Shown in pieces: positions 8,289-61,785 of a stretch of DNA of 64,000 nt. The position numbers were made by a program, and so were the translations under genes. Under the pieces are notes generated by a model. The model saw only the letters and a program-made list of their open reading frames with translations. It did not search any database and had not been told where the DNA came from. Every line of letters begins with the position of its first letter. The first letter of the stretch is position 1. The stretch is from assembly GCA_021772655.1 (NCBI GenBank), contig JAJFLM010000335.1, positions 34,941-98,940 on the forward strand, given 5' to 3'. The stretch is from Deltaproteobacteria bacterium (GTDB taxonomy: Bacteria > UBA10199 > 2-02-FULL-50-16 > JAJFLM01).

Positions 8289-8990
8289 CTATCTTTTTCT
8301 AATAATTTTATATTGTTTGGTTGTTAACATTTGTCCTGTTAACTTTTGTATGCTTTCTTTTGTATCTTTTTCTTCTACTATCTTCTCAACTAAATCAGGT
8401 AAAGTATTTTTTTCTTCTACAAGTAAAGACATTTCTTCTGGTGCCCAATCTTCTAAATAAGAATATCGAGCAGTAACTACAATATTATTTAGTTCACTAT
8501 TAATAGTTCTCTTTATTCTTCGAAGCTTCTCTTTCAATTCAGGAGTAGGAGTTTCTCTATTTTCTAATACAGTTTCTATTAAAATGTGTATTAGATCTCC
8601 TAGAGTATCTATATCAGGAATATGATCCCTAATAGCAATCTTTCTGTCATTCTCTTCTTTATGGGAGGGACAACAAGGTACTATATTGAAAGTATCTATT
8701 ACTCCTCCTACTTCTAGAGGAATATAAAAGGAATACCTGAGAGCATGGGAGCTATTGGATTCAGCCACTAAAAGATTGATACCACAGAAAGCACAAGACC
8801 CTTTATATTCTTTATACTTTTCTTCAGCTTCAGATCTTAGAAATCTTTTCTTTAAATGAGGACGCTTACGTTTTATCTCATTATTTAATTCAGCAACAGC
8901 CTTTATATAAGCTCTCTTACTTGTAATTGGAGCCTTAGGCATCTGGAAATAGCTCTGGATTCTCTTCGGCAGCTTGCTCAAAGCTACCAC
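8289..8990 (-). CDS. hypothetical protein with a degenerate HNH/zinc-finger-like core
   Basis: 233-aa ORF. CAFCG...EVGG...NIVPCCPSHKEEN recalls an HNH beta-beta-alpha-metal core, but the catalytic His is not evident. Confidence 0.5.
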   Translation of the reverse strand: MVALSKLPKRIQSYFQMPKAPITSKRAYIKAVAELNNEIKRKRPHLKKRFLRSEAEEKYKEYKGSCAFCGINLLVAESNSSHALRYSFYIPLEVGGVIDTFNIVPCCPSHKEENDRKIAIRDHIPDIDTLGDLIHILIETVLENRETPTPELKEKLRRIKRTINSELNNIVVTARYSYLEDWAPEEMSLLVEEKNTLPDLVEKIVEEKDTKESIQKLTGQMLTTKQYKIIRKR

Positions 8991-9537
8991 ATCCGATGAT
9001 TTTTACAAGACGAGAGACATTTAATCCTCTCTTCCACCAATGATCCATCACAGTTTTATTCTCTAAAACTTTAACCCCGAAAGAAGAAGATAGTCCAATA
9101 GCTTTACCAGGAGTTAATGTATTATAAGTAGTTTCTAATTCAAGACCTAATCCATGAGCAGCAGTCTCCATCTTTTCAGATGTAGCACCCCAAGGAGTAC
9201 ACCATACCGTAGGTTGATACTTCAATACAGATGTGAACCATTCTAAACTTTTTTCAAGATGTTCTATTATCTCTCTAAGTTTTAATTTATTATAATCTAT
9301 ATGTTCAAACCCGTGTAACTGAGGGTCACATTCTCCTTTAGTTAAAGAATTTTTAGTAAGCTCAATTACTTCCGGCCACTCCTGAATTTCCGTTACTAAA
9401 ATTGTTGGGACAAAATGAATTTTTTCTTCCGATCCCAGCCACCGATACATTTTTTGTATCTGTCTTATCGATTTCTCCTTGTCGAAGGCTGAGCTGTGAC
9501 ACATCACGTCGTCGATCCTTATTCTTAACTTTGTCAC
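8935..9537 (-). CDS. hypothetical protein, possibly of the polysaccharide-deacetylase/carbohydrate-esterase fold
   Basis: 200-aa ORF. RIDDV and HGFEH are weakly reminiscent of NodB-type motifs. The start is uncertain because the first ~176 nt overlap the upstream endonuclease ORF. Confidence 0.45.
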   Translation of the reverse strand: MTKLRIRIDDVMCHSSAFDKEKSIRQIQKMYRWLGSEEKIHFVPTILVTEIQEWPEVIELTKNSLTKGECDPQLHGFEHIDYNKLKLREIIEHLEKSLEWFTSVLKYQPTVWCTPWGATSEKMETAAHGLGLELETTYNTLTPGKAIGLSSSFGVKVLENKTVMDHWWKRGLNVSRLVKIIGCGSFEQAAEENPELFPDA

Positions 9538-16290: not shown

Positions 16291-16319
16291 AAGTTACCCC
16301 ATCGGAATCGTTTTGTCAA
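16291..16319 (-). promoter_or_regulatory. sigma-70-like promoter (TTGACA-N17-TAACTT) upstream of the AAA+ gene
   Basis: The minus strand reads GCGCTTGACA aaacgattccgatgggg TAACTT. The -35 overlaps the NAMPT stop codon. Confidence 0.45.
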
Positions 16320-17647: not shown

Positions 17648-17665
17648 TATTTTTCCTTAAATTAT

Positions 17666-17724
17666 ATTTTGTATGACGTTATGTGGGCTAAAAGCGGTTG
17701 ACTTTCCTTTTTAACCTCCTGATT
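17666..17724 (-). promoter_or_regulatory. copy 1 of a conserved ~59-nt upstream motif (candidate phage-specific promoter/5' leader)
   Basis: The minus strand reads AATCAGGAGGTTAAAAAGGAAAGTCAACCGCTTTTAGCCCACATAACGTCATACAAAAT, just upstream of the NAMPT SD. Near-identical copies lie at 25024-25082 and 29531-29590. Confidence 0.55.
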
Positions 17725-17750
17725 TTAAACGGTATTCTGGCTTTTGCGGA

Positions 17751-18017
17751 TTAATACTCTATCCACCACCACAAAGGACCTTGATAAGGTTTAAGCTTTT
17801 CAAGAAAATAATTAGTTGCTCTTTCGGTTGAACTAAATTCCGCGCCTTTTATCTCTTCAGTAGAAACTACAAAATAGATTTCTTTAATATTTTTAGGTAT
17901 TTTAAATCCTTTTGTACTACAAGCTATCTCTTCTTCAAGATAATTTACCCATGCAGTACACTGTGTAATACAACTAATATTATATTTACATTTATAAGCT
18001 TTAATCGTTATCTTCAT
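17751..18017 (-). CDS. hypothetical protein
   Basis: 88-aa ORF between the two NAD salvage genes. Confidence 0.55.
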   Translation of the reverse strand: MKITIKAYKCKYNISCITQCTAWVNYLEEEIACSTKGFKIPKNIKEIYFVVSTEEIKGAEFSSTERATNYFLEKLKPYQGPLWWWIEY

Positions 18018-18029
18018 TATTCAATCCCC

Positions 18030-18935
18030 TTACTTTATTTTAAAACTCCGCCGTTTGTCATACCAATTAATAAAGTCAACCATCAAAGCAGCATGTCCAT
18101 CTGCAAAATTAGTGGGACCATCAAAGATACTTTTCCATTCTAAAATATCCATATCATCCTTTGCTTCAATATAACTATTGTCTGAATAATAATCAGCTGC
18201 AAAGAAGAAAGTAAGAATAGAACTATTACTAGTATTTCTCCAATCTGTTACTGGATGACTACTAATATATTCTAGTTTACTTGTATCAATAATTAGAGAA
18301 GTTTCTTCTTTCAATTCTCTGCAAGCACTAAATTCTGCATTTTCGCCTTCCCCAATAAAACCACCAGGGAATCTCCAATAACCTTCATTACTTTTCTTTT
18401 GTCCGAGAAGAACAAGATCCTGTTTTTTATCATATATTGCAATATCTACTGTAGGTTTAATCTCGGGCCACCTTGTTTTAGCAGCGTAGATCAATCCCTT
18501 TCTAAAATCTTCAGAATTTACTGTAGTAATAGAATTTCTAATCTCTGTACCGGAATCTCCCTGAAACTTCTCAAGCTCTACTGTAGGATAGACTCCCTTA
18601 TAATGAGGAATAAAAGAATCTCTTCCACCATAGAGCATGAATTTTCTATAAGGAAGAACCTGTCTCAAAGTTTGATCTATTTGTTCAGACCATTTATCAT
18701 CCGATGGACTATCAAACAAAGGCAGAACAATAGCTTTTGGATACTTACTTAGTATCATATCTGCTCTCATTCTAAAGTCAAGAGGATGTTCAAGGCTATT
18801 AGGGATAGGATGTACTCCAATGAAAACAACAATTTCTCTTTTTCCTACATCCGAGGCTTCATCAATTAAATATCTATGTCCTTCATGAAGTACAGGTACT
18901 TGAAATCTACCAATCACAACGCCTACGGTTTCCAT
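18030..18935 (-). CDS. natV: bifunctional NMN adenylyltransferase / Nudix hydrolase
   Basis: N-terminal cytidylyltransferase-fold motif GRFQVPVLHEGHRYLI. C-terminal Nudix box GGFIGEGENAEFSACRELKEETSL. Confidence 0.85.
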   Translation of the reverse strand: METVGVVIGRFQVPVLHEGHRYLIDEASDVGKREIVVFIGVHPIPNSLEHPLDFRMRADMILSKYPKAIVLPLFDSPSDDKWSEQIDQTLRQVLPYRKFMLYGGRDSFIPHYKGVYPTVELEKFQGDSGTEIRNSITTVNSEDFRKGLIYAAKTRWPEIKPTVDIAIYDKKQDLVLLGQKKSNEGYWRFPGGFIGEGENAEFSACRELKEETSLIIDTSKLEYISSHPVTDWRNTSNSSILTFFFAADYYSDNSYIEAKDDMDILEWKSIFDGPTNFADGHAALMVDFINWYDKRRSFKIK

Positions 18936-23597: not shown

Positions 23598-24971
23598 TTA
23601 CGCGGCACCATTAGTGCGGTTCTCCTTATCTGAATGGATACCAAGATTCTCAAGAACCTTAGCACCTTGCGGAGTCTGAGCGAAACCCTCCACCGCAGCA
23701 CCGATAGCAGTACCACCCTTAGAACTAAACAGATCCATAGCATTATTCACACCGTTAGTAACACTACCGGTATTAGCAATAACCTTGATCTGCGCTTCCT
23801 GAAGAGCCTTAGCTTGCTCAATACCAACTGCCTGATCCTTTTCGATACTTCGAATAGAAGTCAGATAAGTCTGGTACCCTTCATTATCACCAATCTCAGT
23901 AGCGAGGGCAATCTGTGGATCAACAAGTGCCATCTCAGCAAGCCGCCTAGATTCTGCTTGAGACTGACCAATTGCCAGGATACCTTCAGCTTGCTTCTGT
24001 TGCTCAGCAAGAGAACCTTCAGCAAGAGTAACAGTTTCCTGCTTCTTACCTTCGGCTTCAATTACCTGAGTTTCTCTAAGCTGCTCGGCTGCTACCACCC
24101 TGACAGACTTATTGATTTCAGCTTGCTGTACCTCAGCAACTCGCTTAATTTCCATGTCGCGGGCCATGGTGGTCCTAGCTTCAAGCTTAATTTCCTGTTG
24201 AGCTTGCTCAGTAGCAATACCAACAGCCTTGTCCTTATCAGCAGTTCGTCTACCAATAAGCTCAAGTGCTTCCTGTTCTCTAACCTGAACTTCCTGCTCA
24301 GCAGCAATCTCAGCAATCCTAGCAGCCTGCTTATTAGTAGCAACCTCAGTACGAGATTCCTTATCAATCAGGGATTCTTTCTTAGCTTGAATATCAGAAA
24401 CAACCTTAGAACCATTACCGTCTCTAATATCCATCAGCTCGATATTTTTTACATTAGTAACACCCCAAGCTGAAAGCTGATCCGCAGTCTCTTGAGTGAA
24501 AAGATCACCGTAAGTACTACGATCCATCATGATGTCTTCAATCTCATGCTTCGCCAGAATGGTACGGGCAGCACCTTGGAGAATCGAATGAAGCTGCTCA
24601 TTAAGTTCTCTAAGAGAAGTAATGCGCTGAGCTGCAAGAGAAGGGTCATCAATTCGGAAGAACGATACTACATCTACAACGAAAGGCACCTTACCTACGT
24701 CGTAAGCCTCGTAACCGTTAAGTTCGAGGGAAAATACAGACAAAGGAAGAACCTTAACCTGTACACCAATCACAGGTACCCATGAAGGCCAAGAATAATA
24801 ACTATTATTAATCTCGGTATCATTATCAAGACCATAAATAGTCTTGCCTGAATTACTCTGTACAATATGCACCTCGTTCGGCTCTACAACCGTTCTATAT
24901 GCAATTGCCAGAAGAACAAATACTGCTAGTGAAATACCAGCAACAATTCCAAAAATTCCAATACCAACCAT
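23598..24971 (-). CDS. SPFH/Band-7 (flotillin/YqiK-like) membrane protein
   Basis: N-terminal TM segment, an SPFH-like domain, then long Ala/Glu/Gln-rich coiled-coil repeats typical of flotillin-like proteins. Confidence 0.8.
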   Translation of the reverse strand: MVGIGIFGIVAGISLAVFVLLAIAYRTVVEPNEVHIVQSNSGKTIYGLDNDTEINNSYYSWPSWVPVIGVQVKVLPLSVFSLELNGYEAYDVGKVPFVVDVVSFFRIDDPSLAAQRITSLRELNEQLHSILQGAARTILAKHEIEDIMMDRSTYGDLFTQETADQLSAWGVTNVKNIELMDIRDGNGSKVVSDIQAKKESLIDKESRTEVATNKQAARIAEIAAEQEVQVREQEALELIGRRTADKDKAVGIATEQAQQEIKLEARTTMARDMEIKRVAEVQQAEINKSVRVVAAEQLRETQVIEAEGKKQETVTLAEGSLAEQQKQAEGILAIGQSQAESRRLAEMALVDPQIALATEIGDNEGYQTYLTSIRSIEKDQAVGIEQAKALQEAQIKVIANTGSVTNGVNNAMDLFSSKGGTAIGAAVEGFAQTPQGAKVLENLGIHSDKENRTNGAA

Positions 24972-52349: not shown

Positions 52350-54543
52350 ACCAAGACCAAAATTAGGAAGACCTAAAAAGAAAATCACCAAGTCAGAAAG
52401 AGAATTCGCTGACTTTATGGTAGATCAGAACGTTGGTTGTATCGAGGCGGCACGAAAAGTATTCAAGTGGAAGTGTGAGCCAAATAGTAAGCAAGCCCTT
52501 AAAGCCGTAGAACTAACTCGTGCCCCTCGTATCAAAGCCTATATAGAAAGTAGAAGAGTTAAAGTAACCCAGGAAGCTGAGGCTACTGGGATGCTGGCTG
52601 ATATTGATATCCTAGATATGGATAACTTTCGTAAGTTTTTTTACGAAAGACTTCGAACTATTAGGGACGATCCTGATGTAGGGGCTCAAGCCAGATATCA
52701 GGCTATCATGACTCTTAAGAAGATGGCAGATCCTTCTTCTGACTATAATCTAATCATGATGTATGTTGATCTCATTTGGAGAGGCACAACTGTCCATTGT
52801 CCTAACTGTCACAATACTTTTCCTTTATGGAAAATTGAAAATGAATCTCTTGAAGCTTGGCATAAAGAAGAAGAGATTACTCCTATTGATAAAGTAGAAT
52901 CTCTTCTTGATAGAAGAATGGAGATTCTCCACCGGGCGGACAATCGTAAGCGCCCTCACGCCAGTCAGATAATAGCCCTTGAGGCTCCCGAACGACATAT
53001 AGCTGGATTGGCTGGTGCTCGTGCTGGCAAGTCTTGGTTGTTAGCTTGTCTAGCTTTAATCCATTTCCTGATTCCAGGAGTGGAGATTTGGATCCTAGCG
53101 CGTATTTATGAAGACGCTAAGTCGGAGGTAGAGTTTCTAAGGAACTTCATCAAGACCTTATTCTACCCACACTCCCGACACCTTGTATCAGAACACTATG
53201 ACTCCCGAACCGGTGAATTAACTATTTCATCGAAATGGGGATCTCTGCTTAAAGTTAGATCCGCCAAGGCTAAAGGATCTATTACCGGTAGAGAGTTAGA
53301 GTTAGCTCTAGTAGCTGAGCCTGGGTGGGTACCTGAGGATCTGTATGAAGAGCTTCGAGCGCGTATGACTTCTCGTCTAGGACGTATCATTCTATTAGGT
53401 ACTCCTAAGGGATATACAGGTATCCTTGGGCGTATGGTTAATATGATGGGTAGAGACGAACACGGTAGAATGGTACGTATTCCAAAAGAACAACGTACTA
53501 TAGCTGCTGGAATGCCTTGGTCAAGATCCATGCTTGTCTATAATCTAAAAGTAGAAGATAACCCGGAATATGTAAAGTCGGAGCGAGATGCCGCTAGATA
53601 CGAGCTTACTGAATCAGAATATGCATCGGAGTTTGAAGGTGCAATGACTTCTGAGGAGGGAGCTAAATTCCCTCTTCTAGAACAAAGACACTTAATAAAA
53701 GTAGATCTATCCGATTATTTTAATTGTGTTTTCGTTTTGGGTATAGATCAGGGAGCTAAGAATTTTGCTGCTTGCCTCCTTGCGTTCGATGGGAAACGGG
53801 TGTACGTTGTCCGAGAGTATTTCTTCTGCGACAACAATACTATGTTGTATCATATTAAAGAACTACAAAGATTAGTTCCATTATGGATTAGACAAGTTGG
53901 TGGTAATAAGAATAATTGGCAATTAACTATCTTTGATGCAGATCCTCTGGTATTTAGTGAGCTTCAAGAATTAGAAGATGACCCCAAGAATAAACCATGG
54001 GCTACTCCAGTTACTTTCAGACCTAAAGGTAAGGGAGGTAAAAATTCTTCTGCTGCTACTTGGAGACCTAGAACTTATGAATATGTAAATAATCTGTGTT
54101 CTGCCAAGACGGCTCAACTTATTTTTGATGAAAACGGAGAAGATGTTTATCTTCTACACGATCAGCTTATTCGGGCTCAAAATGTTACAGTAGATAGATC
54201 TAAAGACTCAGATCCTAATAAATCTAAAGGATGGGTTATCTCTAAGATGATGGATCGTGCTGACCACGTATGTGATGCTTTTATCATGGCTATGTGGACT
54301 ATTCTTAATGGAGAGTTACAATTAACAGATGAGTCTGGAACTCCTCCCAATAATGTGTGGGAAGAACATACTAATATGTTTAATTATAATATAATGGTTA
54401 GTGAAAGAAACGAACTACAAGGGTACTTACCTAAAGATGAGCGTATGTCAGAGAATGACATGTTCAAGAAAAACTTTGGAAGAAAACGTGCCTCCTCTTG
54501 GACTATAGGAGGAGCCCCGGGATATTATAAGGACGAATCGTGA
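52336..54543 (+). CDS. terL: terminase large subunit with an N-terminal small-terminase-like extension
   Basis: Residues ~1-140 (GRPKKKITKSEREFADFMVDQNVGCIEAARK...RIKAYIESRR) look like a Terminase_2/P27-type TerS HTH domain. Then CPNCHN, Walker A LAGARAGKSW, and a C-terminal RNase H-like nuclease region. Confidence 0.8.
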   Translation: MPSGKPRPKLGRPKKKITKSEREFADFMVDQNVGCIEAARKVFKWKCEPNSKQALKAVELTRAPRIKAYIESRRVKVTQEAEATGMLADIDILDMDNFRKFFYERLRTIRDDPDVGAQARYQAIMTLKKMADPSSDYNLIMMYVDLIWRGTTVHCPNCHNTFPLWKIENESLEAWHKEEEITPIDKVESLLDRRMEILHRADNRKRPHASQIIALEAPERHIAGLAGARAGKSWLLACLALIHFLIPGVEIWILARIYEDAKSEVEFLRNFIKTLFYPHSRHLVSEHYDSRTGELTISSKWGSLLKVRSAKAKGSITGRELELALVAEPGWVPEDLYEELRARMTSRLGRIILLGTPKGYTGILGRMVNMMGRDEHGRMVRIPKEQRTIAAGMPWSRSMLVYNLKVEDNPEYVKSERDAARYELTESEYASEFEGAMTSEEGAKFPLLEQRHLIKVDLSDYFNCVFVLGIDQGAKNFAACLLAFDGKRVYVVREYFFCDNNTMLYHIKELQRLVPLWIRQVGGNKNNWQLTIFDADPLVFSELQELEDDPKNKPWATPVTFRPKGKGGKNSSAATWRPRTYEYVNNLCSAKTAQLIFDENGEDVYLLHDQLIRAQNVTVDRSKDSDPNKSKGWVISKMMDRADHVCDAFIMAMWTILNGELQLTDESGTPPNNVWEEHTNMFNYNIMVSERNELQGYLPKDERMSENDMFKKNFGRKRASSWTIGGAPGYYKDES

Positions 54544-55331
54544 GTCTACCTCCTCTGGAGTCTATACCTAAATTTTTAACTTTTGTATGTTGTGGTCAAA
54601 GTGGTCATACTATTTTAGCTGCCATTCTTGACTCTCATCCTAATGTGATTATTGGAGAAGAGAAAAAAGCTATATGGCGACGCCGCTCAAAAGAAGACCT
54701 ATATAGAGTTTTATTTGAAGACTCTCAAGGTAGAGCTAAAAGCACTAAATCCTATAGATCTAAAGTAGGATCTTTCCCCAATTTGTATCAAGGTAGATAT
54801 ATTAGCCATTTAGATGTTATAGGAGATAAATGCGGTTGGGATGTTATAGGCCCTCAATTAGATAAAGAAAACCCTACCGACAGAAGAATAAAACAATTTC
54901 TTAGTAGGATACATCCAGCTGAACATAAATACATACATGCGCTAAGAAATCCTTTTGATATTATATCTAATTGGAATTCTAATAAAGCAGGGAGAAAACA
55001 CTCTGGTCATAAAGGACCGGATAATATTCTTAAAGCTATAGATCTTTATGAAAAATATGCTAGAACCATTCAGAAAGTATATTATGACAACGGATACAAT
55101 CCTTATCAAATAAGAAACGAAGACCTATGTTTGGATCCAGAGTTTATAATAGAATCTCTTTGTGATTATTTGGAAATTCCCTGTCCAGAAGATTGGCTAA
55201 AGATTTGCGTGGAAGCTATAAATCCTGTACACCGCCGAGTCTCTGAAGGTTTTTGGACAAAAGAGAGTATAAACAAGGTAGAGGAAATCATCGATACTTA
55301 TGATTTTCTTGGAGGGTATAAATATGAATGA
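54540..55331 (+). CDS. sulfotransferase-like protein
   Basis: FVCCGQSGHTILAAILDSHPNV resembles the 5'-PSB loop of sulfotransferases. 263 aa. Confidence 0.5.
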   Translation: MSLPPLESIPKFLTFVCCGQSGHTILAAILDSHPNVIIGEEKKAIWRRRSKEDLYRVLFEDSQGRAKSTKSYRSKVGSFPNLYQGRYISHLDVIGDKCGWDVIGPQLDKENPTDRRIKQFLSRIHPAEHKYIHALRNPFDIISNWNSNKAGRKHSGHKGPDNILKAIDLYEKYARTIQKVYYDNGYNPYQIRNEDLCLDPEFIIESLCDYLEIPCPEDWLKICVEAINPVHRRVSEGFWTKESINKVEEIIDTYDFLGGYKYE

Positions 55332-56139
55332 GACGCTAGAAGGTGAAGGTTACTATTATATAGTATATGGGCACGGTAAGAACTTCAGAGAAGTAACCTT
55401 ATCTATCTCTAGTCTAAAGAAAGTAAGTCCAAAAGCTAAGGTAACAGTAATCTCTTCTCGTCCTTCTCCTGGATTGGATGAGTTGTGTGATAGAGTTATT
55501 GTAGATAGAGATTTAGATTTTAAGCGGACTACTATAGGAAAAGATAAAGTTCGAGGTTTACAAGGTAAAACCATGTGGATGAAGAATTTTATTCCATATG
55601 AAAGGACTTGTTTTGTAGATGGAGATACATATTGGTGTGAGTCGATTAGCTCAATATTTAGGCATCTTGATCATTATGATGTACTTGCTGCTCCTGATCC
55701 TGGGGAGATAGAGATCAAGGAAGTTGATCCGCCCCATGATACTCTAGAAGGAATTATTCCTCCTAACCTTGGATTAGTATTATATAAAGCTACAACTCAG
55801 ATAAACGCTTTGTGGGATAATGTTTATGATCAACAACAAAATCTACCTACAGATGTTTATTTTCCTGAATACCATGGACAACCTAACTCTGCTTCCGATC
55901 AACCTTATTTTGCCGGTCATTTAATGAAAAGTAGACTTCGATATTATCCTCTTCCAAGCGTATATAATTTTCAATGGAGAAAGTGGCAGACCGTACAGGG
56001 AACGGTTAAGATGATCCATGGTCGAGGGAAAGATTATGAAGAACTTAAAGGAAAAATAAATCAAAATTCTCAGGCTTATAATAGAATATGGAATCCAGTT
56101 AAACAAGAAATATTACTAAGCAAAGGATTTATAATATGA
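55324..56139 (+). CDS. nucleotide-diphospho-sugar glycosyltransferase (GT8-like)
   Basis: The start at 55324 follows GGAGGG. DxD context CFVDGDTYW. Confidence 0.55.
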   Translation: MNETLEGEGYYYIVYGHGKNFREVTLSISSLKKVSPKAKVTVISSRPSPGLDELCDRVIVDRDLDFKRTTIGKDKVRGLQGKTMWMKNFIPYERTCFVDGDTYWCESISSIFRHLDHYDVLAAPDPGEIEIKEVDPPHDTLEGIIPPNLGLVLYKATTQINALWDNVYDQQQNLPTDVYFPEYHGQPNSASDQPYFAGHLMKSRLRYYPLPSVYNFQWRKWQTVQGTVKMIHGRGKDYEELKGKINQNSQAYNRIWNPVKQEILLSKGFII

Positions 56140-56741
56140 TTATTTCTTTTAAAAAAGTAATGTCAAGACTAGAGCATCCTATCACTGGAATTATTCATAT
56201 TGGAGCTAATGATAAGAAAGAAGAAAAAATATATAAACAAGAGGGCATTGAAGATATTATTTGGGTTGATGCTAACCCAGAGTGTGAAGGGGTAATTAAT
56301 GAGTTGGTGTGGAGTAGTAGTTATACTATGCCTTTCTATTTAACTAATAGAAGGATGTGTTCTTCGGCCTTCGAATTAGAAAAACATCTAGTACTCTTTC
56401 CTACAATTGAAGTAGAAAAAGAAATAGAACTAACTTCTATAACTCTTCCTTCTCTTATTAAAAAATATAATATCGATATTACTAAATATAATTTTTTGAA
56501 CATGGATGTTCAAGGAGCAGAATGGGAAATTTTATTTGGAGCCGGAGATTTTCTTAATAATTTTCAAGCGGTATATTGTGAGTTTTCCACTGATTCAGTT
56601 TTTAAATATAATCCTAATGATTTAGATGATTTAGATGATATATTAAAATCTAATGGTTTTGTAAGAGTTTTAACTAAATGTTTTGGAAATCATCCATGGG
56701 GAGATGCTTTATATGTCAATAAGACATATACTTCTAACTAG
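56136..56741 (+). CDS. FkbM-family methyltransferase
   Basis: NFLNMDVQGAEWEILFGAGDFL is typical of the FkbM/Methyltransf_21 family. Confidence 0.65.
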   Translation: MIISFKKVMSRLEHPITGIIHIGANDKKEEKIYKQEGIEDIIWVDANPECEGVINELVWSSSYTMPFYLTNRRMCSSAFELEKHLVLFPTIEVEKEIELTSITLPSLIKKYNIDITKYNFLNMDVQGAEWEILFGAGDFLNNFQAVYCEFSTDSVFKYNPNDLDDLDDILKSNGFVRVLTKCFGNHPWGDALYVNKTYTSN

Positions 56742-57393
56742 GTTTGCTCTTCTTCACCCACAAAGCTCTGAAGAGTGGTTAGAACATAGAATAGAACTAT
56801 TTGAAAAATATACCCTACCTTCAGTAGAGAAACAGACTTGTAAGAATTTTGAATGGTATCTAATAGCGAATCCTAACTTTCCTGGTATTAAAAAATTTAG
56901 GATTGATAAATATGCTAGAGTTTTATGGGAAGATTGGAAATGGGATGAAGATCAAGATAATATAGGAAAACTTTTTAGAAGCGGGTGGCCTTGGATTCGG
57001 GGTCGTGAGATAGGGCGTCCTTGGTTAATTAGCTCTCGCTTAGATAGTGATGATATATTAGCTGAAGATTTCATAGAAAGAATCCAGAACACTGCTGAAG
57101 AAAAAGAAGAATGGCTTAGTATCCCTCGTGGTTATATGGTGAAAGGAGACAAAGCTTATCCCAGGTACTATGAAAAATCTCCGTTTGTTTCTTTTGTGGA
57201 AAAAAGACATACTCCTAAAACTGTGCTACACACTCCTCACACCAAAGCCGATTCGGTGAGAATCATAGATGACAAGCCTGGGTGGATTCAGTTAGACCAT
57301 GGTAAAAATATAAAGAACTCCGTAGAGAGAGCTAAGTTAGTTCGCTACATAAATGTTAATCAAATTGAAGGAAAGTTTAGTGCGTATCCATGA
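56713..57393 (+). CDS. glycosyltransferase (rhamnosyltransferase-like family)
   Basis: ILLTRFAL....WLEHRIELFEKYTLPSVEKQTCKNFEWYL and SSRLDSDDIL match the putative rhamnosyl transferase-type family, recalled from memory. Confidence 0.55.
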   Translation: MSIRHILLTRFALLHPQSSEEWLEHRIELFEKYTLPSVEKQTCKNFEWYLIANPNFPGIKKFRIDKYARVLWEDWKWDEDQDNIGKLFRSGWPWIRGREIGRPWLISSRLDSDDILAEDFIERIQNTAEEKEEWLSIPRGYMVKGDKAYPRYYEKSPFVSFVEKRHTPKTVLHTPHTKADSVRIIDDKPGWIQLDHGKNIKNSVERAKLVRYINVNQIEGKFSAYP

Positions 57394-58210
57394 AGTAATA
57401 TATTTTACTCACGAACTAGATATGCTAGAGGCTCATCTTGAGGAGCACGCTAATTTTGTAGATAAGTTCTACATTAAAGAATCTCCTGTACTGTGGACTG
57501 GAGTAGAAAAACCTCTTATCTTTTCTGATAATTTAGATAGATTTAGTCGGTTTAATGTAGAACCTATGCTTATACCTAAGGAGGAATTTAACTGTGAAAT
57601 CCCAGCTACATTCCCTGAAGAAGAACATAAGAAATGGTTTGATGTACGTAGATCCAATCGCCAGCGCAGTCGTACTTATCGTTGGGATGATATTACTAGT
57701 GGTAGCGACTATACCTTATCTACCGATGCCGATGAAATTATTGATAGTCGTCGTGCTAAAGGGTTATTAGATTTACTTCCTAGTAGAGAGTATGAACATA
57801 TTGCAATTAAACTAACTCAATCTCAGTTTTGGGTTAATGCATTGGGAAAAAAGCTTGCCATTTACAGAGTATTCCGATCAGATGTACCTAATCGGTCACA
57901 AGTAAAAGGATTCCCTAGAACAACTACTCCTTTAATCGGATGGCATTTTACTAACTGTTATGACCCAGAAGGGATTAGAACTAAAACCATGGGCATTACC
58001 ACTCACTATGGTATATGTGGAGTGGAACAAGTTCCTAACGTAGAAAATATAGCTAAGTCTCTAGAGGAAAATAAGAATCCGTTTAGAAGACGTTGGGCCG
58101 GCGGTAAATTAGTTAAAGATGTAGAAGAGATAGATAAAGGTAAAAAAGAAGGATTGGATTGGGCTCCTAAATTTATGAGAGAGAACCCAGAGTTATTTCC
58201 ATGGAAATGA
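57353..58210 (+). CDS. glycosyltransferase family 17-like protein
   Basis: VIYFTHELDMLEAHLEEHANFVDKFYIKES resembles the GT17 N-terminal signature. The start is uncertain; GTG at 57380 is an alternative. Confidence 0.55.
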   Translation: MLIKLKESLVRIHEVIYFTHELDMLEAHLEEHANFVDKFYIKESPVLWTGVEKPLIFSDNLDRFSRFNVEPMLIPKEEFNCEIPATFPEEEHKKWFDVRRSNRQRSRTYRWDDITSGSDYTLSTDADEIIDSRRAKGLLDLLPSREYEHIAIKLTQSQFWVNALGKKLAIYRVFRSDVPNRSQVKGFPRTTTPLIGWHFTNCYDPEGIRTKTMGITTHYGICGVEQVPNVENIAKSLEENKNPFRRRWAGGKLVKDVEEIDKGKKEGLDWAPKFMRENPELFPWK

Positions 58211-58773
58211 AACACCCAGAGAAAATTCTTATAACTGGTATGATGCATACCGGTAGTACTTTATTAGTTCGTATATTAGAAGAGTTGGGGTATGATATAG
58301 GAGGAGAGACTGAGTGGCTTAACCCAAGAGAAAACAGATCTCTGTTAGCTAGATCTAGAGAGGCGGGATATGATCCCTCTCCACAGGTAATTAAATATCC
58401 ACATCAACTAAAGAAGAAAGGAATTAGGAGTCTTATTCATTTTGCACAAAATAATGAGTGGAGAATTAGAGGGTTAATAATTACTACTAGAAGATTTCCT
58501 GATTTGGTTAAAGCTACATACCACCCTAAATATCACAAGAGTTCTCAAGACTGTGAGAAATTAATCTTGGCTAGACAGGGAGATCTTATGCAAAGTATTG
58601 CAGATAGTGACTATGCTTGTGGCCCTGTAGTATTTTTAAACTTTCCAAGATATACTAGAGATCCCGATTATTTCTATGGAAGAATGCGTCCGGTATTAGA
58701 TTTTCTAGATATAGAAACAATTCACAATGTTTTAAAAAAACACGTTGATGCTAGTAAGGTTCACTATGGATAA
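58201..58773 (+). CDS. second sulfotransferase-like P-loop protein
   Basis: ITGMMHTGSTLLVRILEELGY is a PSB-like loop. 190 aa. Confidence 0.45.
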   Translation: MEMKHPEKILITGMMHTGSTLLVRILEELGYDIGGETEWLNPRENRSLLARSREAGYDPSPQVIKYPHQLKKKGIRSLIHFAQNNEWRIRGLIITTRRFPDLVKATYHPKYHKSSQDCEKLILARQGDLMQSIADSDYACGPVVFLNFPRYTRDPDYFYGRMRPVLDFLDIETIHNVLKKHVDASKVHYG

Positions 58774-59479
58774 ACTCAGTGTAATCTACCCATATTTTCA
58801 CAGTGAGAGAATGTTAAGTATTCATTTAAATACTTGGGATTCATACCCGGATTATATTAAAGAAAAGATTAATTTCATTGTAATAGATGACTGTTCTGAT
58901 CCTCCAATGCACATCCCAGAAATGAATTTAAATTTGAAAGGGTTTCGAATCTTAGATAATATTAAGTGGAATCAGCCTGGAGTTAGAAACTTAGGAGCTA
59001 CAGTAGCTGAAACAGATTGGCTTCTTTTTGCTGATACAGATATGGTTATTTCTGCTGATATTATGGTTCAGGTGTTCGAGCGAGAATTTGATCCAGAGAA
59101 GCTATATAACTTTCAGCGAAAGAGAATGTCTAACCCTAACGTAATTCACCACAAAATTCATAAGTGTACTGCTATCATGACAAAAAATCTTTTCTGGAAT
59201 ATAGGTTTAGGGTATGATGAAGATTTTTGCGGAGAGTATGGGTTTGATGATAGCTTCTTCTTTTCTTTTTTTGAAAAAGAACGTTGGGTTACCATGGAAG
59301 GACTTGTAGTCACGGAGTATGATAAAGAGTTTCTTGAGGATGATGGGACTCCGTTAGTTAGGAATCCGGGTCCTAATAAAAAATTGTTTAGAGAGAAGCG
59401 GAAAGATAAATATACTAATCACAGCCGAGATTATATAAGATTCTCCTATATGAAAGTTTATGATTATTTATACAGCTAA
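58766..59479 (+). CDS. family 2 glycosyltransferase
   Basis: VIYPYF...FIVIDDCSDPP...FADTDM. The ATG at 58766 overlaps the previous stop (ATGGATAA). Confidence 0.7.
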   Translation: MDKLSVIYPYFHSERMLSIHLNTWDSYPDYIKEKINFIVIDDCSDPPMHIPEMNLNLKGFRILDNIKWNQPGVRNLGATVAETDWLLFADTDMVISADIMVQVFEREFDPEKLYNFQRKRMSNPNVIHHKIHKCTAIMTKNLFWNIGLGYDEDFCGEYGFDDSFFFSFFEKERWVTMEGLVVTEYDKEFLEDDGTPLVRNPGPNKKLFREKRKDKYTNHSRDYIRFSYMKVYDYLYS

Positions 59480-60110
59480 TTTCGGTAGGAAAGATAAATA
59501 TGAAGAACCATGGTGTGGAAAACTTCCTGGGTATGAATTTCATTATTTCACCGATGATCCCAAAAAACGGAATGGTGATATCTGGGATATCCAACATGAA
59601 AAACCCCGATTACCTGGGGACACTAGAATGTCCGCTAAGTGGTACAAGATGCACCCTCACTTACTCTTTCCAGGCGAAAGAACTATTTGGATTGACTCTA
59701 ATTACTCTGTCACAAAAAACCCTGATCCCCTCTTAGAGGATAAAGAATTAATTTGTTATGAACATGCTTTGAGAGATTGCGTGTGGGATGAATTAGATCA
59801 ATGTATAAAGAAAAAAGCAGATAAAGAAGAGCGTTTAAATAAATTTAAAAATATGCTTGTTAATAAAAACTTTCCTAGAAACAAAGGATTGTATCAAGGA
59901 AACGTCTTAATAAGAGAAGATACCGCGGCAGTAAGAAATTTTGATAGAGAATGGTGGGATCTTATTCATGTTTATACATCACGAGATCAGCTCACTCTTC
60001 CTTTAATTATAGAGAATTTAAAATATATTTCTTTACCTCATGAGGCTAAAAGAAATTATTTTTTTAAAATAGGGAAGCATTTATTTCATGGGAGTAGAAA
60101 TGGAAATTGA
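59460..60110 (+). CDS. DUF616-type glycosyltransferase-like protein
   Basis: MIIYTANFGRKDKYEEP start typical of DUF616. Confidence 0.55.
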   Translation: MIIYTANFGRKDKYEEPWCGKLPGYEFHYFTDDPKKRNGDIWDIQHEKPRLPGDTRMSAKWYKMHPHLLFPGERTIWIDSNYSVTKNPDPLLEDKELICYEHALRDCVWDELDQCIKKKADKEERLNKFKNMLVNKNFPRNKGLYQGNVLIREDTAAVRNFDREWWDLIHVYTSRDQLTLPLIIENLKYISLPHEAKRNYFFKIGKHLFHGSRNGN

Positions 60111-60690
60111 AAACTTAGATGATCTTTGTAATGCAGTTACAGAGATAAAAAGAGACAAGGAAAACAGAAGAGACTATGGCGTAGCTAAATGGTCTCATCG
60201 AAATGATTATCCTGTTTTCTATACTTTAGCTAAAGCTTATAATGTTGATAACGTTTTTGAATGTGGTACTAATGGAGGAATGTCCGCCTGTGCCTGGGCC
60301 TTAGCATTGAGAGAAATGAAGAAGCTGGGAAACGTATATACCTGGGATGTACAAGAATTACGTCAAGTACACCATGGTATGGAGATTTCTCATAAAATAG
60401 TACGTCATGTAGAATCTTTCCATCCTACTGCTGGAGATGTTATTAGGAGAGTTCGTAGGGTTCATTCAGGTCCCGCTCTGTTTTTTGTAGATGGCGATCA
60501 TTCTGAGAAAGGATGTAGAGCAGATTGGGTTACTATACTTCCTCATGTTCGCCCCGGTGACGCAGTAGTTTTTCATGACTATGCTGGTGCTACAGGAGTT
60601 AAGAAGATAGCGGATGAACTTACAGAGAGTTTTAATAAATACGGATATGAGATAACAACTAATACTGGAATTTATATACTGGAGTGGTAA
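60100..60690 (+). CDS. class I SAM-dependent methyltransferase (CmcI/Methyltransf_24-like)
   Basis: FECGTNGGMSA and FFVDGDHSEKGCRADW. Confidence 0.55.
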   Translation: MEIENLDDLCNAVTEIKRDKENRRDYGVAKWSHRNDYPVFYTLAKAYNVDNVFECGTNGGMSACAWALALREMKKLGNVYTWDVQELRQVHHGMEISHKIVRHVESFHPTAGDVIRRVRRVHSGPALFFVDGDHSEKGCRADWVTILPHVRPGDAVVFHDYAGATGVKKIADELTESFNKYGYEITTNTGIYILEW

Positions 60691-60691
60691 A

Positions 60692-61135
60692 ATGGATTGG
60701 GATGATTATTTTATTGAGGGAGTTCATTGGGTAGCTAAGAAGTCTAAGGATACTAGCACTAAAGTAGGTTGCATTATAGTATCGGCTTCTAATGAAATAC
60801 TATCTACCGGATACAATGGAATACCAAGAGGTATCTCAGATGACAGACCGGAACGCCATGAGCGTCCCGAGAAATATGAATGGTTTGAACATGCAGAGAG
60901 GAATGCCGTATATAACGCAGCTAGAAATGGGGTAATGCTTCTAGATAGTACCTGTTATATTACACATCCTCCATGTGTAGACTGTGCTAGAGGTTTAATT
61001 CAAGCAGGAATTACTTGTGTGATTTGGCCTACAGATAATAAATTTGAGAACAGTGAGGAAGGAAACCGATGGCCTGGAATAATAAAAGCCGAAGCAATGA
61101 TGCAAGAAGCTGGTATAGAAATTGTAAGAGTCTAA
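60692..61135 (+). CDS. dCMP deaminase
   Basis: HAERNA ... PCVDCA zinc-binding motifs of the cytidine/deoxycytidylate deaminase family. 147 aa. Confidence 0.85.
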   Translation: MDWDDYFIEGVHWVAKKSKDTSTKVGCIIVSASNEILSTGYNGIPRGISDDRPERHERPEKYEWFEHAERNAVYNAARNGVMLLDSTCYITHPPCVDCARGLIQAGITCVIWPTDNKFENSEEGNRWPGIIKAEAMMQEAGIEIVRV

Positions 61136-61785
61136 TATTAGCTCTTCTACTAGGGTGTGCAACTCCGCTTCCTATAGAGGCTCTTACTTTATGTGTAGCT
61201 GGAGACTCTCTGGCTTATCCTGGACCTTCAGGAAGCTGGGGTAATCGACTACCTTCCGAATATGTAGTTGATTTTAGGGGAACACCGGGAGCCACCACAG
61301 ATAATTGGGTAGGTCCTGGGCATGGACAACCCGAGGGATTTGCTTGGCCTAGGGTACAGCAATGCTTTAATCAGGGAGCAACACACATTTCCTTTAATTT
61401 AGGTTCTAATGATCGTTCTCCTGCATGGCAAATTACACCTTTCAATCAATTCCTAAAGATGCTAACTATAACTCAAGACGCTCTTACTATAGGATATCAT
61501 CAAGTCTTCCTATTTCAGATTGATCCTTATGGAGACTTCACTCAGATTATTTGTGATGAAGTAGAGGGTGCTACTTGTATCGACCAGCGCGGACTACTTC
61601 CTAATACAACTGAATACTATGTTGATATAAACCCTGACGGGTTGGGAGTACATCCTAATCTACTAGGACAGACAATTCTAGCTGATGAGGTAGTACGTTT
61701 GACTATAACACCAGAGTCTTCTACCATTGTTATGTTAGGCTTCGGTATGGGGATGATGGCTTTAATAGGAAGAAAACGTGGCTGA
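61069..61785 (+). CDS. SGNH/GDSL hydrolase with a lipoprotein-type signal and a PEP-CTERM-like C-terminal anchor
   Basis: LILALLLGC lipobox. GDSLAY block I and DGLGVHPN block V. C-terminus TPESSTIVMLGFGMGMMALIGRKRG. Confidence 0.65.
   Translation: MAWNNKSRSNDARSWYRNCKSLILALLLGCATPLPIEALTLCVAGDSLAYPGPSGSWGNRLPSEYVVDFRGTPGATTDNWVGPGHGQPEGFAWPRVQQCFNQGATHISFNLGSNDRSPAWQITPFNQFLKMLTITQDALTIGYHQVFLFQIDPYGDFTQIICDEVEGATCIDQRGLLPNTTEYYVDINPDGLGVHPNLLGQTILADEVVRLTITPESSTIVMLGFGMGMMALIGRKRG

What the first reader, a model, noticed from the sequence alone, without database searches (positions are those of the whole stretch)
54540..60690. Nine-gene glycan-modification cluster with two sulfotransferase-like genes directly after the terminase
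- Where a portal gene would normally follow terminase there are nine tightly coupled genes.
- In order: a sulfotransferase-like protein, a GT8-like DxD transferase, an FkbM methyltransferase, a rhamnosyltransferase-like GT, a GT17-like GT, a second sulfotransferase-like P-loop protein, a GT2, a DUF616-type GT and a CmcI-like methyltransferase.
- Phage-encoded GTs that glycosylate virion proteins or alter host surface glycans are known. A pathway that could build a methylated and sulfated oligosaccharide is unusual for a phage and is closer to giant-virus glycosylation machinery.
- The target is unknown. It could be capsid or tail proteins, host LPS/EPS for superinfection exclusion, or conceivably DNA, given the adjacent dCMP deaminase.
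Basis: partly seen in the sequence, partly recalled or inferred. Interest (0 to 1): 0.65.

Follow-up and report, generated by a model that had tools for sequence, protein, structure and literature searches.

The report
Variable sulfated-glycan gene island after phage terminase
An uncultured ~120-kb phage carries nine overlapping genes for sugar-adding, methylating and sulfating enzymes right after its DNA-packaging gene, and related phages carry a fast-changing set of such genes at the same spot, so the lineage probably builds its own variable sulfated sugar coat, on a target that is still unknown.

Summary
Nine overlapping + strand genes (54540-60690) follow the large terminase. Seven pass Pfam's own thresholds: Sulfotransfer_3, FkbM, Rhamno_transf, GT17, GT2, TOD1/MUCI70 and Methyltransf_24. 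Gene 2 is a borderline GT-A (PF03407, not GT8).

Gene 1 is a sulfotransferase by profile and by fold, and is closest to tyrosylprotein and CurM sulfotransferases. Gene 6 is only probably a minimal sulfotransferase.

The new finding is comparative. In about 70 related contigs (TerL 38-58% identical) the same site holds a variable island of 3-14 small soluble enzymes. Two phages with 90% identical TerL share only about half of their island genes. The two sulfotransferase families gave 31 hits downstream of TerL and none upstream.

None of the 106 island proteins is an integral membrane protein. The contig has ThyX, but no ThyA-type hydroxymethylase, no C5 DNA methylase and no APS kinase.

My best reading is a cytoplasmic pathway that builds a methylated, sulfated oligosaccharide, most likely on virion proteins (about 0.45). 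Remodelling of host envelope glycan is the main rival (about 0.3), and DNA is unlikely. The closest parallels are the fixed-locus glycosylation clusters of Megavirinae and the hypervariable GT islands of cyano- and pelagimyophages. I rate it a new variant of a known kind, of moderate interest.

The parts
50842..50865 (+). Strong terminator-like hairpin with a T-run after the tRNA array. It is the likely upstream limit of the transcription unit that contains TerL and the island.
   Evidence: 10-bp stem, 7 GC pairs, T8. No comparable site lies between it and 61785.
52336..54543 (+). Large terminase (TerL, 735 aa). It is the conserved left border of the island.
   Evidence: PF03237 at 5.6e-11 and phrog_2 at 3e-24. 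TerL is 38-58% identical in about 70 related contigs.
54540..55331 (+). g1: PAPS-type sulfotransferase (263 aa) of a family found only in phage-like metagenome contigs. It has a TPST-like core: invariant E41, K97 and R136. The P-loop is GQSGHT, with Gln where Arg or Lys is usual.
   Evidence: Sulfotransfer_3 at 36.1 bits. The family profile matches TPST1 at 5e-13 and CurM ST at 2e-10. The AF2 model has pLDDT 88.7, and all top-50 Foldseek PDB hits are sulfotransferases.
55300..56139 (+). g2: GT-A-type nucleotide-sugar transferase with a DxD motif (FVDGDTYW). The family assignment is borderline.
   Evidence: PF03407 at 21.6 bits against a cut-off of 22. A homologue sits in the L002 island (29% identity). 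No PDB sequence hit.
56136..56741 (+). g3: FkbM-family SAM methyltransferase.
   Evidence: PF05050 at 42.3 bits, phrog_8156 at 1e-9 and TIGR01444 at 33 bits. It is unique to this island among those compared.
56683..57393 (+). g4: Rhamno_transf (PF11316) glycosyltransferase with a DSDD motif.
   Evidence: 62.3 bits. Homologues occur in 7 of 12 islands.
57353..58210 (+). g5: GT17-like glycosyltransferase with a DADE motif.
   Evidence: PF04724 at 43.7 bits. It is 55% identical to a gene in the L004 island of a different sub-lineage.
58201..58773 (+). g6: minimal (188-190 aa) sulfotransferase-like P-loop protein. The family consensus is GxxRxGTT...R...FPRxVxDxxY. g6 itself has His16 in place of the Arg, and it has no Walker-A Lys.
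   Evidence: Sulfotransfer_3 at 17.1 bits, below cut-off. It has 60 distant relatives, and 11 of 29 aligned members hit Sulfotransfer_3. The AF2 model has pLDDT 89.8. Foldseek hits are mixed between kinases and sulfotransferases. hhalign against the g1 family gives 65% probability, E 6e-5.
58745..59479 (+). g7: GT2 glycosyltransferase with VIDDCSD and FADTDMV motifs.
   Evidence: PF10111 at 31 bits and PF00535 at 25.4 bits. Homologues occur in 4 islands.
59460..60110 (+). g8: TOD1/MUCI70 (formerly DUF616) glycosyltransferase-like protein.
   Evidence: PF04765 at 40.3 bits and phrog_26101 at 1.3e-8.
60088..60690 (+). g9: Methyltransf_24 / CmcI-like SAM O-methyltransferase with ECGTNGG and VDGDHS motifs.
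   Evidence: PF13578 at 59.2 bits, PF04989 at 19.5 bits, and NF045824 (rhamnosyl O-methyltransferase) at 1.2e-6. Homologues occur in 8 of 12 islands.
60692..61135 (+). dCMP deaminase. It is a nucleotide-metabolism gene at the right edge and not part of the glycan pathway.
   Evidence: PF00383 at 1.8e-20. It holds the same position in L002 but lies upstream of TerL in L011.
61069..61785 (+). Exported SGNH/GDSL hydrolase with an N-terminal signal peptide (possible lipobox LLLGC) and a C-terminal PEP-CTERM sorting tail. It is the last gene of the + strand block and may be accessory to the island.
   Evidence: PF13472 at 24.6 bits (below cut-off). TIGR02595 PEP_CTERM at 17.1 bits against a cut-off of 16. 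A hydrophobic segment was found.
62298..63301 (-). Conserved convergent block (128-aa and 205-aa proteins of unknown function) that forms the right border of the island across the lineage.
   Evidence: Homologues lie directly after the island in L002, L011, L012, L020, L021 and L022.
8289..9537 (-). Glycan genes at a second site beside the replicative helicase: a PF01522 polysaccharide deacetylase (8935-9537) and a 233-aa protein (8289-8990). The 233-aa protein is homologous to an island gene of L004-type phages, whose whole island sits at this site.
   Evidence: The region has low GC (0.30-0.34).

Best explanation
The nine genes are this phage's version of a hypervariable glycan-building island. 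The island sits at a fixed site, directly after the large terminase and translationally coupled to it, in a widespread uncultured lineage of ~120-kb phages.

All nine products are small soluble enzymes: five glycosyltransferases, two SAM methyltransferases, one clear PAPS-type sulfotransferase (g1) and one probable minimal sulfotransferase (g6). Using host nucleotide sugars, SAM and PAPS, they would assemble and tailor a methylated, sulfated oligosaccharide in the cytoplasm late in infection.

No island in the lineage encodes a lipid-carrier priming enzyme, flippase, polymerase or any other membrane protein. The acceptor is therefore most likely a cytoplasmic one, and I commit to virion structural proteins. 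That would parallel mycobacteriophage capsid and tail glycosylation and the fibril or capsid glycans of giant viruses. The rapid turnover of gene content would then reflect selection on an exposed virion glycan 'serotype'.

What is shown: the enzyme identities, operon structure, fixed site, turnover and solubility. What is inferred: the product, the timing and the acceptor.
For: - The catalytic motifs (DxD in g2, g4, g5 and g7; SAM motifs in g3 and g9) can be read directly from the translations.
- Every junction from TerL onward overlaps, and there is no internal terminator.
- The site is fixed. All 10 TerL-bearing relatives first examined have small enzyme genes directly after TerL, bounded by the conserved minus-strand block.
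- Of 69 TerL loci, the g1 family gave 14 hits and the g6 family 17 hits. All were downstream and none upstream, in 303 kb against 227 kb searched. Of the 15 loci with at least 8 kb downstream, 13 carry an island family.
- A census of 106 island proteins found Sulfotransfer_3 in 11, GT2 in 10, Methyltransf_24 in 9, Methyltransf_11 in 9, Rhamno_transf in 7, Polysacc_deac_1 in 7, NAD epimerase/dehydratase in 6 and GT17 in 4.
- Turnover is fast. L019 and L022 have 90% identical TerL, but only 6-7 of their 12-13 island genes are shared, at 66% identity or less. Island GC is below that of the flanks in 10 of 12 loci.
- Only 3 of 106 proteins have any hydrophobic 19-mer, and none of them looks like a transporter or polymerase.
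- The g1 family is absent from 185,579 species genomes and from GenBank phages, so it looks virus-specific.
- Precedents: virion glycans on mycobacteriophage capsid and tail (cited in PMC12619734), and Megavirinae fixed-locus clusters with a sulfotransferase that decorate capsid fibrils (PMC10117803).
Against: - No glycan, sulfate or acceptor was observed, so everything about the product is inferred.
- The major capsid protein has no Ser/Thr-rich tail like the mycobacteriophage acceptors. The only such stretch is in an unannotated 696-aa protein after the portal.
- g1 has Gln at the P-loop position that is Arg or Lys in characterised sulfotransferases, and g6 has His there. Either could be inactive or use a different chemistry.
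- Soluble glycosyltransferases also act on lipid-linked intermediates at the inner face of the membrane, so the lack of membrane proteins does not exclude host glycan as the target.
- The next gene in the operon is an exported PEP-CTERM esterase. It shows that this phage does send at least one enzyme to the host envelope.
- Published authors read comparable islands in pelagimyophages as host O-chain modification.
Confidence: 0.45

Rival explanations
1. The island remodels the host envelope glycan. Its enzymes would add sugars, methyl groups and sulfate to the host's own lipid-linked O-antigen, EPS, capsule or S-layer glycan units at the cytoplasmic face of the membrane. Host flippases and polymerases would then export them. 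The changed cell surface would block superinfection or stop progeny from sticking to debris.
For: - This is the published reading of analogous hypervariable GT islands in pelagi- and cyanomyophages (PMC7029224).
- The island families (GT2, Rhamno_transf, NodB-type deacetylase, GDP-mannose-dehydratase-type epimerases) are typical of O-antigen and EPS loci.
- Island GC below that of the flanks resembles bacterial surface-glycan loci.
- The same operon ends with an exported SGNH esterase carrying a PEP-CTERM tail. That signal is tied to exopolysaccharide-producing hosts.
Against: - From my own knowledge, known seroconversion systems (Gtr, Oac, Wzy/Iap) each need at least one integral membrane protein. 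None is present among the 106 island proteins.
- The island is translationally coupled to the late packaging gene. That is late for superinfection exclusion.
- The g1 sulfotransferase family is missing from 185,579 bacterial and archaeal species genomes, so it was not simply borrowed from a host surface-glycan locus.
- The SGNH gene is not conserved in the relatives.
Confidence: 0.3
2. The island hypermodifies DNA. Its glycosyltransferases, methyltransferases and sulfotransferases would build a glycan on hydroxymethylated pyrimidines in the phage genome to evade restriction.
For: - Phage GT-A and GT-B enzymes related to LPS and teichoic-acid enzymes do build multi-sugar glycans on 5hmC. Such clusters can lie near terminase and dCMP deaminase genes (bioRxiv 10.1101/2023.12.21.572611).
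- A dCMP deaminase abuts the island.
Against: - Those pathways need a ThyS-type hydroxymethylase or a C5-methylase plus a TET-type oxygenase.
- The contig has only ThyX. It has no ThyA-family gene and no C5-methylase. There was no Tet_JBP hit either, but that search had no positive control.
- The deaminase, ThyX and RNR together form an ordinary dTMP supply route.
- The deaminase is not linked to the island in L011.
Confidence: 0.05
3. The island makes a free or lipid-anchored decorated oligosaccharide, such as a signal, a glycolipid or a decoy, and no macromolecule is modified. The toolkit resembles the Nod-factor one: GT2, NodB-type deacetylase, NodH-type sulfotransferase and NodS-type methyltransferase.
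For: - The island census combines GT2, PF01522 deacetylase, sulfotransferase, SAM methyltransferases and sugar-nucleotide dehydratases, and every protein is soluble.
- From my own knowledge, this mirrors the cytoplasmic Nod-factor tailoring enzymes.
Against: - No NodC-like membrane synthase, acyltransferase or exporter is present.
- No precedent exists in phages.
- Such a product does not explain the fixed position next to the packaging gene.
Confidence: 0.08

Closest known systems
Megavirinae (giant virus) glycosylation gene clusters (Notaro et al. 2022, PMC10117803)
   Same: - Virus-encoded clusters of 6-33 genes with glycosyltransferases, sugar-nucleotide enzymes and methyltransferases.
- In Moumouvirus australiensis and Cotonvirus the cluster includes a ~263-aa sulfotransferase.
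- The cluster lies at a fixed locus between conserved genes.
- Its content is clade-specific and variable.
   Different: - The hosts are eukaryotes and the viruses are Nucleocytoviricota.
- Their clusters carry their own adenylyl-sulfate kinase and full sugar-nucleotide pathways. This phage has no APS kinase.
- In giant viruses the glycans on fibrils were shown chemically. Here nothing has been shown.
Hypervariable 'host recognition cluster' and LPS-gene islands of pelagimyophages and cyanomyophages (Zaragoza-Solas et al. 2020, PMC7029224)
   Same: - A non-syntenic island at a constant position inside a conserved late or structural region of large aquatic phages.
- It is rich in glycosyltransferases and deoxy-sugar enzymes.
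- Its function is inferred, not shown.
   Different: - Those are T4-like myoviruses. Their island lies between VrlC and gp14 and is mixed with tail-fibre genes.
- GT8 dominates there, and sulfotransferases are not a hallmark.
- The backbone here is only distantly T5-like (TerL and DNA polymerase 23-27% identical to Proteus and Vibrio T5-like phages).
- The island here abuts TerL and holds only enzymes.
Mycobacteriophage virion glycosylation (Freeman et al. 2023, as cited in PMC12619734)
   Same: Phage-encoded soluble glycosyltransferases put glycans on capsid and tail-tube subunits, giving a surface shield.
   Different: - Those systems have two to four GT genes, and no sulfotransferase has been reported.
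- Their acceptors are C-terminal extensions, which this phage's capsid protein lacks.
- The Freeman paper itself was not available in the library.
Tyrosylprotein sulfotransferases (TPST1/2) and CurM/OLS sulfotransferase domains
   Same: - They are the best sequence and fold matches of g1.
- The stretch RSGTTLMRAMLDAHP..CGEE aligns with g1 (G)QSGHTILAAILDSHP..GEE. This includes the Glu that I recall as the TPST2 catalytic base (Glu99).
   Different: - Overall identity is only about 15-18%.
- g1 has Gln in place of the P-loop Arg.
- g1 is cytoplasmic, with no membrane anchor.
- Its context of glycosyltransferases suggests a sugar acceptor, but a peptide acceptor is not excluded.

Membership tests
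PAPS-dependent sulfotransferase superfamily (g1) | Profile match above the curated threshold | tested here: met
   PF13469 at 36.1 bits against a cut-off of 27. The family profile matches TPST1 at 4.9e-13.
PAPS-dependent sulfotransferase superfamily (g1) | Sulfotransferase fold | tested here: met
   The AF2 model has pLDDT 88.7. All 50 best Foldseek PDB matches are sulfotransferases, with TM 0.45-0.56.
PAPS-dependent sulfotransferase superfamily (g1) | 5'-phosphosulfate-binding loop with a basic residue (P-K/R-S-G-T-T) | tested here: inconclusive
   The loop is present and S21-G22 are invariant. The basic residue is Arg in 10 of 19 family members, but Gln in g1 and most of its nearest relatives.
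PAPS-dependent sulfotransferase superfamily (g1) | 3'-phosphate-binding Arg motif (R-x-P-x-D...S) and a catalytic base | tested here: met
   R136 and P138 are invariant, D140 is nearly so, and S143 follows. E41 is invariant and aligns with the TPST GEE Glu.
PAPS-dependent sulfotransferase superfamily (g1) | PAPS-dependent sulfate transfer | not testable with these tools
   This needs an enzyme assay. No PAPS-synthesis gene is on the phage contig.
PAPS-dependent sulfotransferase superfamily (g6) | Profile match above the curated threshold | tested here: not met
   PF13469 at 17.1 bits against a cut-off of 27, on residues 9-49 only. 11 of 29 family members match weakly, the best at 1e-5.
PAPS-dependent sulfotransferase superfamily (g6) | Sulfotransferase fold and remote homology over the whole length | tested here: inconclusive
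   Foldseek PDB hits mix P-loop kinases and sulfotransferases, with TM 0.40-0.55. The top three BFVD hits are viral 'sulfotransferase' proteins. hhalign against the g1 family gives 65% probability, E 5.8e-5, over 175 columns.
P-loop kinases (alternative for g6) | Walker A motif GxxxxGK[ST] with the Lys | tested here: not met
   g6 reads GMMHTGST and the family consensus is GxxRxGTT. There is no Lys before the S/T.
Seroconverting-phage O-antigen modification systems (Gtr, Oac, Wzy/Iap types) | At least one integral membrane enzyme or flippase | tested here: not met
   None of g1-g9 has a hydrophobic 19-mer at or above the threshold. Only 3 of 106 island proteins do, and none of them resembles a transporter.
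Phage DNA-glycan hypermodification clusters (ThyS- or C5-MT/5mYOX-linked) | An enzyme that makes 5-hydroxymethyl-pyrimidine in the same genome | tested here: not met
   PF00303 and PF00145 hit only other contigs of the bin. The phage contig has ThyX. Tet_JBP gave no hit, but its control was silent.
Hypervariable glycan islands of large aquatic phages | A fixed position between conserved genes, with non-syntenic enzyme content | tested here: met
Virus-encoded virion glycosylation systems | Glycan chemically detected on a virion protein | not testable with these tools
   No isolate and no particle data exist.

The most novel reading that the evidence does not exclude
This lineage decorates its virions with a methylated, sulfated glycan, or sulfates virion tyrosines directly through the TPST-like g1. 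The post-terminase island would then act as a rapidly exchanging 'serotype locus' for phage particles. That would be the first sulfated bacteriophage virion and a prokaryotic-virus counterpart of giant-virus fibril glycosylation. It would involve two virus-specific sulfotransferase families, one of them a ~190-aa minimal form.
Probability: 0.3. Interest if true: 0.75.

Novelty: new variant of a known kind. Interest (0 to 1): 0.52.

Why it matters
- Phage-encoded sulfotransferases are repeatedly listed as 'auxiliary' genes of unknown role. Here they are the most constant part of a positionally fixed, fast-evolving glycan island in a phage lineage found in groundwater, sediment, soil and ocean assemblies. 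That gives them a concrete and testable context.
- If the product sits on the virion, phages, like giant viruses, would carry self-made variable sulfated glycans. This would bear on adsorption, particle stability, grazing and how phage 'serotypes' are read.
- If the product sits on the host, it would be a membrane-protein-free route to surface conversion.
- Either way, g1 (TPST-like, with Gln in the P-loop) and g6 (a minimal ~190-aa form) are compact new sulfotransferase candidates for enzymology.

Tried and rejected
- Near-identical DNA in GenBank phages: none found.
- A TerL single-sequence scan of IMG/VR found nothing. An alignment query was needed.
- tblastn of g1 and g5 against 50,697 phage records: no match.
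- The g1-family pattern in 185,579 species genomes: no relative.
- g6 in the word-indexed protein search found only itself. The exhaustive search found 60 distant relatives.
- PDB sequence searches for g2, g4 and g9 found nothing.
- Host link to the bin. The bin has no exosortase. None of the 92 other genomes of its phylum has a TerL relative. Shared 20-mers are only tRNA-like and there is no spacer-like match. The contig has 38% GC against 46% for the bin. I therefore treat the MAG as an unproven host.
- A search for a Ser/Thr-rich or acidic-Tyr acceptor tail on structural proteins found nothing convincing.
- The Tet_JBP search was uninformative because no control genome rang.
- The Freeman et al. 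2023 paper was not held.
- Rejected: a 'GT8' label for g2 (Pfam gives PF03407, borderline), and a functional link between the dCMP deaminase and the island.

Full report
**Setting**

The window is C263:34941-98940 of a 474-contig bin. C263 is by far the longest contig, at 119,592 bp. It has 38% GC against 46% for the bin.

C263 is a phage genome and is probably near complete:
- It carries 28 tRNA genes.
- It has a T4-type large terminase, a portal at C263:107754-109979 and a major head protein at C263:118350-119492. Tail- or internal-virion-like proteins lie at its start.
- It has a full replication set: DNA polymerase, primase, DnaB, helicase, a sigma factor, RNR, and SbcCD- and UvsX-like proteins.
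- Two IMG/VR relatives are 119,470 and 119,599 bp long.

It is remote from cultured phages. TerL is 23% identical to T5-like Proteus and Vibrio phages. The DNA polymerase is at most 27% identical to anything in GenBank phages.

Nothing ties it to the bin as a host. The bin has no exosortase. No TerL relative occurs in the 92 other genomes of its phylum. The only shared k-mers are tRNA-like.

**The observation**

Nine + strand ORFs lie at 54540-60690 exactly as described. Each junction overlaps or abuts. TerL and g1 share GTGA, g2 and g3 share ATGA, and the g5 stop overlaps the ATG at 58207, which gives the 188-aa form of g6. There is no strong terminator inside the block. The nearest one upstream is at 50842-50865.

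Seven of the nine pass the Pfam gathering threshold: g1 Sulfotransfer_3, g3 FkbM, g4 Rhamno_transf, g5 GT17, g7 GT2, g8 TOD1/MUCI70 and g9 Methyltransf_24. The other two are weaker:
- g2 is a borderline PF03407 GT-A (21.6 bits against 22) with a clear DxD motif. It is not GT8.
- g6 matches Sulfotransfer_3 only over its P-loop (17.1 bits).

The DxD and SAM-binding motifs are intact in all the GTs and MTs, read directly from the translations.

**The two sulfotransferase-like genes**

g1 belongs to a small family of 32 clusters among 5.8 billion proteins, all from metagenomes.
- A profile of the family hits TPST1/2 at about 5e-13 and the CurM sulfotransferase at 2e-10.
- The AlphaFold model is confident (pLDDT 88.7). 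Its 50 best PDB neighbours are all sulfotransferases.
- Invariant residues include S21-G22 of the phosphosulfate loop, E41, K97 and R136-x-P138. E41 aligns with the Glu of the TPST 'GEE' motif, which I recall as the catalytic base Glu99 of TPST2.
- One caveat: the loop's usual Arg or Lys is Gln in g1 and most of its nearest relatives, while the more distant half of the family keeps Arg.

g6 had no relatives in the word-indexed search. The exhaustive search found 60 distant relatives of about 200 aa.
- Their consensus is GxxRxGTTFL ... IIKxP ... R ... FPRxVxDxxYxYxKLxP. It lacks a Walker-A lysine and resembles sulfotransferase PSB and PB motifs.
- 11 of 29 members touch Sulfotransfer_3.
- The model is confident (pLDDT 89.8), but its PDB neighbours are a mix of P-loop kinases and sulfotransferases at TM 0.4-0.55.
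- In the viral structure library the top three hits are annotated sulfotransferases from phages and a giant virus.
- Profile-profile comparison with the g1 family gives 65% probability, E 6e-5, over 175 columns.

I call g6 a probable minimal sulfotransferase (about 0.6). It has His where the family has Arg.

**Comparative evidence, the main new result**

Contigs that encode g1 homologues show the same layout. L002 (TerL 48% identical) reads TerL, MT, g6-like, g2-like, g4-like, g1-like, MT, dCMP deaminase, and then the same minus-strand block as here. L011 and L012/L013 show TerL followed by different mixes of MTs, a sulfotransferase, Rhamno_transf, GT2, GT17, a deacetylase and an epimerase.

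An alignment-based scan added 7 IMG/VR loci and 71 metagenome loci. Their contig names point to groundwater, sediment, soil and Tara ocean assemblies.

In every TerL-bearing locus examined first, 3 to 14 small enzyme genes follow TerL. Where sequence continues, the conserved 128-aa and 205-aa minus-strand genes come next.

A Pfam census of 106 island proteins from 12 loci gave:

| Family | Members |
|---|---|
| Sulfotransfer_3 | 11 |
| GT2 | 10 |
| Methyltransf_24 | 9 |
| Methyltransf_11 | 9 |
| Rhamno_transf | 7 |
| Polysacc_deac_1 | 7 |
| NAD epimerase/dehydratase | 6 |
| GT17 | 4 |

HMMs of the two sulfotransferase families hit 14 and 17 ORFs in 69 loci. All hits are downstream of TerL and none is upstream, in 303 kb against 227 kb searched. 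Of the 15 loci with at least 8 kb downstream, 10 carry a sulfotransferase-family gene and 13 carry some island family.

Turnover is fast. L019 and L022 have 90% identical TerL, yet only 6-7 of their 12-13 island genes are shared, at 66% identity or less. Island GC is lower than that of the flanks in 10 of 12 loci.

A sister sub-lineage (L004-L006; DnaB 46% and helicase 41% identical) keeps its island beside the helicase. At that second site our phage has a PF01522 deacetylase and a homologue of an L004 island gene. It also encodes a 1038-aa GT2+GT4 protein elsewhere on the contig.

**What the island lacks**

- No island protein looks like an integral membrane protein. Only 3 of 106 have a hydrophobic 19-mer, and two of those lie beyond the island border. 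There is therefore no priming transferase, flippase, polymerase or exporter.
- No APS kinase is present in the phage or its relatives, so PAPS must come from the host.
- For DNA modification, the contig has ThyX but no ThyA-family enzyme and no C5-methylase. Tet_JBP gave no hit, but that search had no positive control. Known DNA-glycan pathways need one of those routes.

**Interpretation**

It is shown that this is a lineage-wide, fixed-site, rapidly exchanging island of soluble glycan-building and tailoring enzymes, with sulfotransferases as its most constant members, co-oriented with and coupled to TerL.

It is inferred that the island makes a methylated, sulfated oligosaccharide late in infection.

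On the acceptor, I favour virion proteins (0.45). The toolkit is all soluble, it is coupled to the late packaging gene, and the sulfotransferase family is virus-restricted. There are also precedents in mycobacteriophages and in Megavirinae, whose fixed-locus, clade-specific clusters include a ~263-aa sulfotransferase.

Host envelope remodelling at the cytoplasmic face is the serious rival (0.3). It is the published reading of pelagimyophage islands, and the exported PEP-CTERM esterase at the end of this operon fits it. A free Nod-factor-like product (0.08) and DNA (0.05) are less likely.

**Novelty**

Phage GT islands, phage PF13469 genes of 'unclear' function and virus-made glycans are all known. 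Four things are new here:
- the uncultured lineage;
- the post-terminase site;
- the dominance of two sulfotransferase families, one of them minimal;
- the measured turnover of the island.

I rate it a new variant of a known kind, with interest of about 0.5.

Noticed in passing
window 61069-61785 (+): A phage-encoded SGNH/GDSL esterase with an N-terminal signal peptide (possible lipobox LLLGC) and a C-terminal PEP-CTERM sorting tail (TIGR02595, 17.1 bits against a cut-off of 16). This implies a host with an exosortase. The bin that holds the contig has none. A PEP-CTERM cargo encoded by a phage seems unusual.
   Followed up: partly
G000:C263:20062-23178 (-), = L008:4062-7178; outside the window: A 1038-aa protein with one GT2 domain and GT4/GT1-type glycosyltransferase matches. 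It shows a further large glycosylation capacity away from the island.
   Followed up: partly
window 8289-9537 (-): A second, small glycan site next to the replicative helicase, in a 30-34% GC stretch. It holds a PF01522 polysaccharide deacetylase and a 233-aa protein homologous to an island gene of L004-type phages, whose whole island sits at this position.
   Followed up: partly
window 16316-18935 (-): A nicotinamide phosphoribosyltransferase (phrog_448, 1.8e-148) lies next to a cytidylyltransferase-like + NUDIX protein. Together they look like a two-gene NAD+ salvage or reconstitution pair of the kind phages use against NAD-depleting defences. That last point is from my own knowledge.
   Followed up: no
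L076:1515-4751: In one metagenomic relative the TerL match spans 3.2 kb instead of 2.2 kb, and three Methyltransf_24-family hits fall 'inside' TerL matches. This may be an insertion in TerL, or a gene nested in or overlapping it.
   Followed up: no
window 23598-24971 (-): A 457-aa SPFH/Band 7 domain protein in the phage.
   Followed up: no
G000:C263:99748-100545 (-), = L009:1748-2545: A tyrosine recombinase (PF00589, 86.9 bits) is conserved in the minus-strand block to the right of the island in several relatives. It could mean a temperate lifestyle or dimer resolution in a ~120-kb phage.
   Followed up: no
related loci L002-L022: GC content in the lineage ranges from about 36% (L017) to about 56% (L020) with the same gene order around TerL. 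This suggests hosts of very different GC content.
   Followed up: no
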